A stretch of 64,000 nucleotides of DNA, from assembly GCF_003334335.1 (NCBI RefSeq), contig NZ_QOWQ01000027.1. One strand, written 5' to 3'. This DNA comes from Escherichia coli. Lineage in GTDB: Bacteria > Pseudomonadota > Gammaproteobacteria > Enterobacterales > Enterobacteriaceae. Below, piece after piece: positions 63,324-64,000 of this stretch (positions within the stretch are counted from its first letter, which is position 1; each line of letters begins with the position of its first letter). The notes beneath the pieces are model-generated. The model was not told where the DNA came from, did not search any database, and saw nothing but the letters and a program-made list of their open reading frames with translations. The translations under genes and the position numbers were made by a program.

Positions 63324-64000
63324 TTAAAACTCGAAGTTAACGCCCATGTTGTAGGACACATCGCCATCACTCGCTGCAATACCCGCTTTCGCTGCGGTCT
63401 GCTCGTTGAAACGGTAACCAACACCCACGGCAACAGCCTGTTTATCACTGTACCCCCCCAGGGCAGCAGTGGCGTTGAATTTCCCCACACTGTACGGCTG
63501 GAAAAGCCCCGCCAGCGCTGCACTCTGTGCTGCTGCACGCTTCATCTCTTCGTGATTCTCACGAATTTGACGCTGCTGGCTGTTCAGGCGTGCATTATGC
63601 TCCTGCAACTGGCGAGTATTGGACTGAATAGCCTGTGTATTTTTAGTAACCCGGCGGTCAACGCTACCAACTGCATAATCAATACGGTCTGTTCTGCCAG
63701 ACAGAGCAACGAGACCATCATTGACGGCGATAGTTTTAGTCGCACCTTCTGCACGGGTAAGTTTTCCGTCAGGGTTCACACCAACTGTCGTTCTGGAGTC
63801 TGTATATTCACGAGACTTTTTCGCTTCGACTACAAGGCGGGTATTCGTATCCTGAGCCAGTTGCTCAACACTGTCTTTTACCCGATCAACCTGACGAACA
63901 GTTGCTGCATCGGATGGGCGAGTTCCATCAGTCAATCCTCCAAGGGTGCGGGTTTTATATGCTTTACCAGAAGCCTCTTCATAACCAATGTAAACTTCAT
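63324..64000 (-). CDS. C-terminal part of a YadA/Eib-like trimeric autotransporter adhesin (coiled-coil stalk plus beta-barrel anchor); 5' end beyond window
   Basis: Frame is open to the window edge; C-terminal [19 protein letters not shown]...GVGYRFNE...MGVNFEF matches the YadA-type membrane-anchor pattern. Confidence 0.75.

What the first reader, a model, noticed from the sequence alone, without database searches (positions are those of the whole stretch)
63324..64000. Partial YadA/Eib-like trimeric autotransporter adhesin running off the window edge
The minus-strand frame is open from the window edge to a stop at 63324-63326. Its C-terminus has a heptad-like coiled-coil ([29 protein letters not shown]) followed by the YadA-type anchor ([19 protein letters not shown]...GVGYRFNE...VNFEF), then a clean terminator. 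In Eib proteins the coiled-coil just before the anchor is the immunoglobulin-binding region; this gene could encode an Ig-binding or serum-resistance adhesin absent from K-12.
Basis: partly seen in the sequence, partly recalled or inferred. Interest (0 to 1): 0.55.

Follow-up and report, generated by a model that had tools for sequence, protein, structure and literature searches.

The report
Known prophage gene eibE, 3' half

Summary
The minus-strand frame is open from 63998 to a TAA at 63324-63326. Every quoted peptide is present, and an 11-bp-stem terminator follows at 63300-63271.

Window 62302-64000 is 100% identical (1,699/1,699 bases) to GenBank AF151676.1, "Bacteriophage P-EibE" from E. 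coli ECOR-9. The frame is therefore codons 264-487 of eibE (487 aa; UniProt EIBE_ECOLX). It covers the neck, both coiled coils, the saddle and the YadA-type anchor (Pfam PF03895, E=2.3e-15).

The gene is cargo at the tail-fibre end of a ~50-kb lambdoid prophage inserted in the serT tRNA. A 60-bp repeat bounds the prophage, and the site is empty in K-12.

EibE is 85%, 76% and 53% identical to EibC, EibD and EibA.

The conserved Asp-Tyr linked to IgG Fc binding sits at aa 370-371 (63675-63680).

The N-terminal 263 residues are outside the window, and head-swapped mosaics exist, so the head here is inferred.

Side result: the conserved downstream ORF-156E folds like a reduced NarL/FixJ-type regulator.

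Verdict: already known, low interest.

The parts
63324..63998 (-). 3' 675 nt of eibE: codons 264-487 plus the TAA stop (63324-63326). The 5' 789 nt lie beyond the window edge.
   Evidence: translation; 100% identity to AF151676.1; the full protein equals EibE.
63327..63503 (-). YadA-type membrane anchor (aa 429-487). It supplies four beta-strands per monomer of the trimeric 12-strand barrel and ends in Phe.
   Evidence: Pfam PF03895 E=2.3e-15, model positions 1-60 of 60. YadA anchor structure 2lme E=1.1e-17.
63504..63692 (-). Left-handed coiled-coil stalk (aa 366-428). Nine unbroken heptads with Asn at d positions 383, 390 and 411. It is one heptad shorter than in EibA, EibC and EibD.
   Evidence: register test; 7-aa gap; 2xzr and 2xqh alignments.
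63675..63680 (-). Codons for D370-Y371 in the motif [10 protein letters not shown], equivalent to EibD D387-Y388. The Asp is the residue whose equivalent was reported as needed for IgG Fc binding in EibG (D391A).
   Evidence: positions; GATTAT on the minus strand; preprint.
63693..63794 (-). Saddle beta-minidomain between the two coiled coils (about aa 332-365; [34 protein letters not shown]). Boundaries are approximate, set by alignment to EibD.
   Evidence: The domain order of EibD comes from PMC7247746.
63795..63902 (-). Right-handed coiled-coil part of the stalk (about aa 296-331). This is the most divergent segment relative to EibC/D, and EibE has an 11-aa gap at its C-terminal end. Boundaries are approximate.
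   Evidence: alignment.
63903..63998 (-). Neck connector (about aa 264-295; [32 protein letters not shown]). The window edge cuts just after the last head repeat.
   Evidence: The last YadA_head repeat ends at aa 257.
63271..63300 (-). Intrinsic terminator of eibE.
   Evidence: Annotated as a stem_loop at 2458-2485 in AF151676.1.
62764..63237 (-). ORF-156E, a 157-aa gene conserved downstream of every eib gene. The predicted fold is a reduced receiver-like domain plus a LuxR/GerE helix-turn-helix.
   Evidence: orf-156A/C/D/E; phrog_6585, E=1.9e-93, unknown function.
62056..62406 (+). YkgJ-family cysteine-cluster gene, the last gene inside the prophage end.
   Evidence: annotation. It lies inside the att repeat.
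61830..61917 (+). tRNA-Ser(UGA), serT. Its 3' 60 nt (61858-61917) form the att core repeat that bounds the prophage.
   Evidence: tRNA; the 60-bp exact repeat recurs between the integrase gene and yccA in UCPROB-002.

Best explanation
The frame is the 3' 46% of eibE, the gene for immunoglobulin-binding protein E. It is a cargo ('moron') gene at the tail-fibre end of the lambdoid prophage P-EibE, which is inserted in the serT tRNA-Ser gene.

How it works, with each step marked as shown or inferred:
- Export (shown in the reference gene, inferred for this genome): a Sec-type signal peptide ([26 protein letters not shown]) takes the 487-aa precursor to the periplasm.
- Anchoring (domain shown by profile and structure-sequence matches; mechanism is established type Vc knowledge): the C-terminal 59 residues of three chains form a 12-strand outer-membrane barrel. 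The passenger is exported through it.
- Passenger shape (shown by 76% identity to EibD, whose structure is solved): the passenger folds as a trimeric lollipop. From the tip inwards it has an N-terminal Eib domain, a YadA-like beta-roll head, a neck, a right-handed coiled coil, a saddle and a left-handed coiled coil.
- Ligand binding (from the literature, not tested here): the stalk binds the Fc part of human IgG without antigen specificity. The binding region starts at the beginning of the left-handed coiled coil, around D370-Y371. On the cell surface the protein forms heat-stable multimers and confers serum resistance and cell-cell aggregation.
- Regulation (literature): expression is low in shaken culture and high in static culture, and is boosted by the unlinked ibrAB island.
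For: - Window 62302-64000 equals AF151676.1 positions 3455-1757: 1,699/1,699 bases, no gaps.
- The full ORF from an identical locus (L001 20925-22388) is 487 aa. It equals UniProt EIBE_ECOLX and the annotated eibE product AAF63045.1 at 100% identity.
- Profile and structure-sequence matches: Pfam YadA_anchor E=2.3e-15 plus YadA_head repeats; EibD structure 2xqh E=3.9e-92 over aa 151-396; YadA anchor 2lme E=1.1e-17.
- The heptad register is unbroken from aa 366 to 429.
- The cassette order tail fibre, ORF-191 (DUF4376), eib, terminator, ORF-156 is the same as in P-EibA, P-EibC and P-EibD.
- The prophage is bounded by a 60-bp repeat of the serT 3' end, with the integrase gene next to yccA. The site is empty in K-12.
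- Divergence from strain UCPROB-002 is 1.4% in the chromosomal backbone and drops to zero after 61673.
- Literature: ECOR-9 carries eibA, eibC, eibD and eibE, and their products bind IgG Fc as stable multimers (PMC5450701). EibE is listed as UniProt Q9LA53, 52 kDa, and Eib proteins mediate serum resistance and Fc binding (PMC7247748). Two regions of the EibD stalk bind IgA and IgG respectively (PMC7247746). EibG D391A loses IgG Fc binding (preprint). ibrB enhances Eib expression (PMC7649339).
Against: - Only codons 264-487 are in the window. The signal peptide, Eib domain and head are inferred from identical references.
- A head-swapped mosaic with an almost identical C-terminal 280 residues exists in strain JNEC-KY204, so the C-terminal half alone does not prove the N-terminal half.
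- No complete RefSeq genome matches the window across both backbone and prophage, so the source genome itself was not recovered.
- Ig binding and serum resistance were not and cannot be tested here.
- The primary papers (Sandt & Hill 2000 and 2001; Leo et al. 2011) are not in the held library. Function rests on the database records and on secondary citations.
Confidence: 0.9

Rival explanations
1. The gene in this genome is a head-swapped mosaic. It would have an EibE-type stalk and anchor joined to a different N-terminal domain or head, as in strain JNEC-KY204. Its adhesion or aggregation specificity would then differ from canonical EibE.
For: JNEC-KY204 encodes a 508-aa protein that matches EibE aa 208-487 except for D370Y, with a divergent N-terminal ~200 aa. 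Megablast hits to eibE fall into nested 3'-anchored classes covering 64%, 50%, 33% and 18% of the gene, which shows frequent module exchange.
Against: The window DNA is 100% identical to the ECOR-9 eibE record over all 1,699 shared bases, including flanks. The mosaic is only 99.2% identical and carries D370Y, which the window does not. All four complete genomes that match eibE over its full length at 99.9% identity or better carry the canonical 487-aa gene.
Confidence: 0.05
2. The gene is an inactive remnant in this genome, truncated or frameshifted upstream of the window, inside a decaying prophage.
For: In UCPROB-002 the same prophage has a frameshifted gpJ and several partial genes, so it is probably defective and open to decay.
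Against: The 224 codons in the window are intact and identical to the functional reference. No reference with a near-identical gene is flagged as a pseudogene. The exact protein is seen on 63 contigs.
Confidence: 0.04
3. It is a different Eib paralogue (EibA, C, D, F or G), or a generic YadA-like adhesin that does not bind Ig.
For: The anchor and the last heptads are highly conserved across the family, so short C-terminal motifs alone cannot tell paralogues apart.
Against: Within the window part, identity to EibC and EibD is only 76.5% and to EibA 73%, with 23 or more gap columns, against 100% to EibE. The NCBIfam YadA model scores 116.9 bits against a cut-off of 750, so it is not YadA itself.
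Confidence: 0.01

Closest known systems
EibE of E. coli ECOR-9 (GenBank AF151676.1 / AAF63045.1; UniProt EIBE_ECOLX, listed as Q9LA53)
   Same: Identical DNA over all 1,699 shared bases, including the terminator and ORF-156E. The flanking cassette is the same.
   Different: No difference in the part that can be seen. The first 263 codons are not in the window. The chromosomal backbone of the source strain was not matched to any complete RefSeq genome.
EibC and EibD (P-EibC, P-EibD; EibD structures 2XQH and 2XZR)
   Same: [quoted passage not shown] Overall identity is 85% and 76%. The [10 protein letters not shown] motif is conserved. Same prophage cassette.
   Different: EibE lacks 11 residues at the end of the right-handed coiled coil and one heptad (SIEKNSK) of the left-handed one, and its right-handed segment is strongly diverged. 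From memory of Sandt & Hill 2001 (not verifiable here), EibC and EibD also bind IgA whereas EibE and EibA bind IgG only. That would fit the divergence of this segment.
EibA
   Same: Anchor, left-handed coiled coil and saddle are conserved (73% identity in the window part). Same prophage position.
   Different: EibA has no YadA-like head or neck (392 aa). The Tyr of the Asp-Tyr pair is Ala.
YadA of Yersinia (prototype type Vc autotransporter)
   Same: Same anchor fold (2lme, E=1.1e-17), head repeats, lollipop architecture and serum-resistance role.
   Different: Only distant identity. It scores far below the NCBIfam YadA cut-off (116.9 vs 750 bits). YadA is plasmid-borne and binds collagen; it is not an Fc receptor.
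EibG and ClaA/ClaB of LEE-negative STEC
   Same: Same family and prophage context. They bind IgG Fc through the equivalent Asp and mediate chain-like adherence.
   Different: A different head region. I did not have the sequences to align here.

Membership tests
Trimeric autotransporter adhesins (type Vc secretion) | C-terminal YadA-like membrane anchor domain with a terminal aromatic residue | tested here: met
   Pfam PF03895 E=2.3e-15, full model coverage, aa 429-487, ends in ...NFEF. 2lme E=1.1e-17. This lies inside the window.
Trimeric autotransporter adhesins (type Vc secretion) | Coiled-coil stalk leading directly into the anchor | tested here: met
   One heptad register runs unbroken over aa 366-429. 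It aligns to the EibD coiled-coil structures 2xqh and 2xzr.
Trimeric autotransporter adhesins (type Vc secretion) | N-terminal Sec signal peptide and head domain | tested here: inconclusive
   Present in the identical reference gene: the signal-like N-terminus [26 protein letters not shown] and YadA_head repeats at aa 149-257. That part lies outside the window.
Trimeric autotransporter adhesins (type Vc secretion) | Obligate homotrimer | not testable with these tools
   Reported for Eib proteins as heat-stable multimers (PMC5450701).
Eib immunoglobulin-binding proteins | Sequence membership: orthology to a named Eib | tested here: met
   100% DNA identity to eibE of P-EibE. The full protein equals EIBE_ECOLX. 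Identity to EibC, EibD and EibA is 85%, 76% and 53%.
Eib immunoglobulin-binding proteins | Location in a lambdoid prophage, downstream of the tail-fibre genes and ORF-191, followed by ORF-156 | tested here: met
Eib immunoglobulin-binding proteins | Conserved IgG Fc-contact residues at the start of the left-handed coiled coil (EibD D387-Y388) | tested here: met
   EibE D370-Y371 in [10 protein letters not shown], window 63675-63680. Their functional role is taken from the preprint.
Eib immunoglobulin-binding proteins | Non-immune binding of human IgG Fc, and serum resistance | not testable with these tools
   Reported in the literature for the Eib proteins of ECOR-9, EibE among them; the EibE-specific test (Sandt & Hill 2000) is cited in PMC5450701 and PMC7247748 but the primary paper is not held.
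YadA proper (NCBIfam NF033478) | Score above the curated whole-protein cut-off | tested here: not met
   116.9 bits against a cut-off of 750. It is a relative, not YadA.

The most novel reading that the evidence does not exclude
eib genes may not be lone cargo genes. Each may form a two-gene module with ORF-156, which appears to be a phosphorylation-independent LuxR-type pseudo-response regulator and could switch the adjacent adhesin on or off, for example by countering silencing of the AT-rich 5' region. The published picture has only the unlinked ibrAB activators. My evidence shows the conserved linkage and the fold. It shows nothing about a regulatory target.
Probability: 0.2. Interest if true: 0.35.

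Novelty: already known. Interest (0 to 1): 0.08.

Why it matters
It tells an annotator that this genome carries prophage P-EibE at serT, and with it a characterised Fc receptor and serum-resistance adhesin. That gene is rare: eib-like DNA occurs in about 1% of complete E. coli genomes, and canonical eibE in four of 5,426. RefSeq labels it only 'YadA-like family protein', so the specific name adds information for virulence and commensal-fitness profiling. It opens no new biological question. The only open thread is the uncharacterised ORF-156 regulator-like gene next to every eib gene.

Tried and rejected
- **Primary papers.** I tried to read Sandt & Hill 2000 (PMC97405) and 2001 (PMC98814), Lu 2006 (PMC1594913) and Merkel 2010 (PMC2916290); none is held. 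The exact published Ig-binding intervals, and the claim that EibE does not bind IgA, therefore rest on my memory and are flagged as such.
- **NCBIfam.** There is no Eib-specific model. All trimeric-autotransporter models score far below their cut-offs.
- **PADLOC.** No hit for EibE, ORF-156E or the YkgJ-family protein, so there is no defence-system reading.
- **Source genome.** I searched 12 kb spanning backbone and prophage. The best complete genome is 99.3% identical, so the missing 5' half could not be taken from the true source.
- **Preprint numbering.** The preprint's 'EibE D378-Y388' does not fit EibE, where position 378 is Arg and 388 is Gln. It fits EibD D387-Y388, equivalent to EibE D370-Y371. 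I treat it as a numbering slip; that is my inference.
- **ORF-156E by sequence alone.** Pfam, NCBIfam and single-sequence PDB searches gave nothing significant. Only a family profile and a structure model gave a consistent signal.

Full report
**1. The observation**

Read in the correct phase (63998 down to 63324, minus strand), the frame has 224 sense codons and ends at a TAA at 63324-63326. Phase 64000 is closed, so the last two bases of the window belong to a split codon.

An intrinsic-terminator-like hairpin lies 24 bases after the stop, at 63300-63271 on the minus strand. It has an 11-bp stem with 7 G-C pairs, an 8-nt loop and a T run.

The coiled-coil claim was tested by scoring all seven heptad phases over aa 366-429. 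One phase places T/V/V/I/L/L/I/M/S/F at position a and I/V/N/N/H/Q/N/A/L at position d. That is 12 of 19 core positions hydrophobic, and 17 of 19 if N/Q/H are counted. Two further phases are simply this register relabelled, because they re-use the same residues as 'd' or as 'a'. The four independent phases score only 3-4 of 17-18. The heptad stalk is therefore real. It starts about 27 residues further upstream than the quoted segment.

**2. What it is**

The last 1.6 kb of the window is 100% identical to the chromosome of E. coli UCPROB-002. There the frame belongs to a 1,464-nt gene annotated 'YadA-like family protein'. Its 487-aa product has these matches:
- Pfam YadA_anchor at aa 429-487 (E=2.3e-15), plus YadA_head repeats at aa 149-257.
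- The EibD crystal chain 2xqh at E=3.9e-92 over aa 151-396, and the YadA anchor 2lme at E=1.1e-17.
- By exact sequence, the UniRef representative EIBE_ECOLX, 'Immunoglobulin-binding protein EibE'.

A tblastn search of phage records found GenBank AF151676.1, 'Enterobacteria phage P-EibE', host ECOR-9, gene eibE, at 100% identity over 487 aa. A direct DNA comparison shows window 62302-64000 equals AF151676.1 positions 3455-1757, 1,699/1,699 bases with no gaps. The finding is therefore codons 264-487 of the published eibE gene.

**3. Anatomy of the part in the window**

By alignment with EibA, EibC and EibD and with the EibD structure, the window part runs from the N-terminal side as follows. The domain order of EibD is described in PMC7247746.
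- Neck, about aa 264-295.
- Right-handed coiled coil, about aa 296-331.
- Saddle minidomain, about aa 332-365.
- Left-handed coiled coil, aa 366-428.
- Anchor, aa 429-487.

Overall, EibE is 85%, 76% and 53% identical to EibC, EibD and EibA. Within the window part the figures are 76.5%, 76.5% and 73%.

EibE differs from EibC and EibD in three ways. Its right-handed segment is diverged. It has an 11-residue gap at the end of that segment. It lacks exactly one heptad (SIEKNSK) in the left-handed coiled coil, which keeps the register.

**4. Genomic context**

The window carries, in order: the hya operon on the minus strand, tRNA-Ser(UGA) at 61830-61917, a YkgJ-family gene at 62056-62406, ORF-156E at 62764-63237 on the minus strand, the terminator, and then eibE.

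Beyond the window, in the identical reference, come ORF-191 (DUF4376, tail-fibre related), a tail-fibre gene, lom, a frameshifted gpJ, and the lambdoid tail, head, lysis, replication and immunity genes. An integrase gene lies next to yccA.

The 3' 60 nt of the tRNA (window 61858-61917) recur exactly between the integrase gene and yccA. The prophage is thus a ~50-kb insertion in serT, bounded by a 60-bp att core.

Two further results agree with this:
- Divergence between the window and UCPROB-002 is 1.4% along the chromosomal backbone, and no mismatches remain after 61673.
- In K-12 MG1655, serT and yccA are about 200 bp apart with nothing between them.

The cassette order ORF-191, eib, stem-loop, ORF-156 is shared by P-EibA, P-EibC, P-EibD and P-EibE. 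P-EibE lacks the orf-60 and eaa genes that follow in some of the others. The 5' half of eibE and its upstream region are AT-rich, with GC of 0.36-0.44, as is usual for acquired cargo genes.

**5. How it works**

*Shown here.* The sequence identity, the domain content, the register of the stalk, and conservation of the motif [10 protein letters not shown] (EibE D370-Y371, equal to EibD D387-Y388; window 63675-63680).

*From established type Vc knowledge.* Export is Sec-dependent. Three C-terminal domains form a 12-strand barrel, and the passenger is exported through it and trimerises (PMC12511318).

*From the Eib literature:*
- ECOR-9 carries eibA, eibC, eibD and eibE. Their products run as heat-stable multimers, are detected with human IgG Fc, and are produced at high level in static culture (PMC5450701).
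- Eib proteins mediate serum resistance, adherence and non-immune Fc binding, and EibE is listed as UniProt Q9LA53, 52 kDa (PMC7247748).
- Two different regions of the EibD stalk bind IgA and IgG respectively (PMC7247746).
- In EibG, the D391A change abolishes IgG Fc binding while chain formation persists, and deleting the saddle does the reverse (bioRxiv 10.64898/2025.12.25.695649).
- ibrB enhances Eib expression (PMC7649339).

*From my memory only* (Sandt & Hill 2001; Leo et al. 2011). EibE and EibA bind IgG but not IgA. The IgA site of EibD lies in the right-handed coiled coil. That would fit the divergence of this segment in EibE.

**6.

It is supported, with one correction. The quoted segment, aa 393-421, is the membrane-proximal end of the stalk. 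The crystallised EibD fragment that PMC7247746 calls 'immunoglobulin-binding' aligns to EibE only up to aa 396. The functionally implicated Asp is at aa 370. The Fc site therefore lies at the start of the left-handed coiled coil, mostly upstream of the quoted residues.

**7. Caveats**

The first 263 codons lie outside the window. Module exchange is common in this family. Hits to eibE in complete genomes fall into nested, 3'-anchored coverage classes. Strain JNEC-KY204 encodes a 508-aa protein that matches EibE residues 208-487 except for D370Y, but has a different N-terminal ~200 residues.

The window is 100% identical to the ECOR-9 record and keeps D370, so canonical eibE is much the more likely. 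It cannot be proved from the window alone. No complete RefSeq genome matches the window across both backbone and prophage; the best is 99.3% identical.

**8. Distribution**

- eib-like DNA is found in 54 of 5,426 complete E. coli genomes.
- 14 genomes cover at least 80% of the gene.
- Only four carry eibE over its full length at 99.9% identity or better: JE86-ST02, JE86-ST05, UCPROB-001 and UCPROB-002.
- The exact protein is on record on 63 contigs.
- An 88%-identical gene is carried by phage PhiR12_3, whose recorded host is ECOR13.

**9. Side result: ORF-156E**

This 157-aa gene follows every eib gene and is 69% identical among the copies. It belongs to phrog_6585, of unknown function. It has no Pfam, NCBIfam or PADLOC match. 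A search of 1.84 billion representative proteins found only 30 relatives.

A profile of the family hits GerE (1fse, E=0.0076), and eight of its nine PDB hits at E<=1 are LuxR/GerE or NarL-family helix-turn-helix proteins, all matched at the same place, aa ~97-149. An AlphaFold2 model is confident, with mean pLDDT 89.4 and pTM 0.84.

Its 32 best Foldseek matches in the PDB are all full-length NarL/FixJ-family regulators: RcsB, LiaR, DesR, FixJ, EvgA, VraR and VpsT. E-values run from 2e-3 to 5e-2 with probabilities up to 0.99. Global TM-scores are low, 0.3-0.45, presumably because the two domains are packed differently.

The N-terminal domain is a short, four-strand receiver-like fold. It lacks the acidic pair after strand 1 (KVILATRN), but keeps an Asp at the end of strand 3 (IICD; D52 is invariant in the five ORF-156 copies aligned). 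I read it as a reduced, probably phosphorylation-independent LuxR-type regulator. Its target is unknown.

**10. Verdict**

The gene is already known and experimentally characterised, so it has low interest as a discovery. It has some annotation value, because RefSeq calls it only 'YadA-like family protein'.

Noticed in passing
window 62764-63237 (-): ORF-156E is conserved just downstream of every eib gene and has no annotated function (phrog_6585; no Pfam or NCBIfam match). It models confidently (pLDDT 89) as a short receiver-like domain plus a LuxR/GerE helix-turn-helix. The family profile hits GerE at E=0.0076, and all 32 best Foldseek PDB matches are NarL/FixJ-family response regulators. 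The acidic pair of a true receiver is missing, but an Asp at the end of strand 3 is kept. It is a candidate regulator with no known target.
   Followed up: yes
L008 3001-4527 (NZ_AP045180.1, strain JNEC-KY204): A 508-aa mosaic Eib-like protein. Its C-terminal 280 residues match EibE except for D370Y, which changes the Asp linked to IgG Fc binding. Its N-terminal ~200 residues are divergent. It shows head swapping in the family and may be a natural Fc-binding-site variant.
   Followed up: partly
window 61858-61917 and L006 28304-28363: A 60-bp exact direct repeat of the serT 3' end bounds a ~50-kb lambdoid prophage lying between serT and yccA. Chromosomal divergence from the reference strain (1.4%) drops to zero after window position 61673.
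   Followed up: yes
L001 25599-29068 and several genes in L006: In the reference strain the same prophage has a frameshifted gpJ tail-tip gene and several truncated genes (a YdfR-family gene, a SASA esterase gene, DUF551 genes). It is probably defective there.
   Followed up: no
window 62056-62406 (+): A YkgJ-family cysteine-cluster gene sits between the att core and ORF-156E. It has no PHROG, NCBIfam or PADLOC match. The region up to about 62382 is present at over 99% identity in several genomes that lack eibE, so this prophage end is shared by other serT elements.
   Followed up: partly
window 62400-64000 (exact part not located): The 1.6-kb end-of-window query matched 4,252 E. coli records, mostly at 90-95% identity, while only 30 covered 80% or more of it. 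Some short stretch of it is therefore a widespread sequence; the 880-bp flank downstream of the eibE 3' end is the likely place, since the gene itself matches only 54 genomes. I did not locate or identify it.
   Followed up: no
window 8271-8464 (+), 25903-25945 (+), 31831-31909 (+), 42592-43014 (-): Rfam gathering-threshold hits elsewhere in the window: Ysr251 (189 bits), ES036/CssrF, naRNA4/CssrE, and a cspA-type thermoregulator leader that coincides with the cspG gene and its 5' leader. These look like ordinary chromosomal features.
   Followed up: no
bioRxiv 10.64898/2025.12.25.695649, section 9: The preprint cites 'EibE D378-Y388' as the IgG Fc-contact residues. In EibE those positions are Arg and Gln. 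The numbers fit EibD D387-Y388 (EibE D370-Y371), so this is probably a naming and numbering slip.
   Followed up: yes
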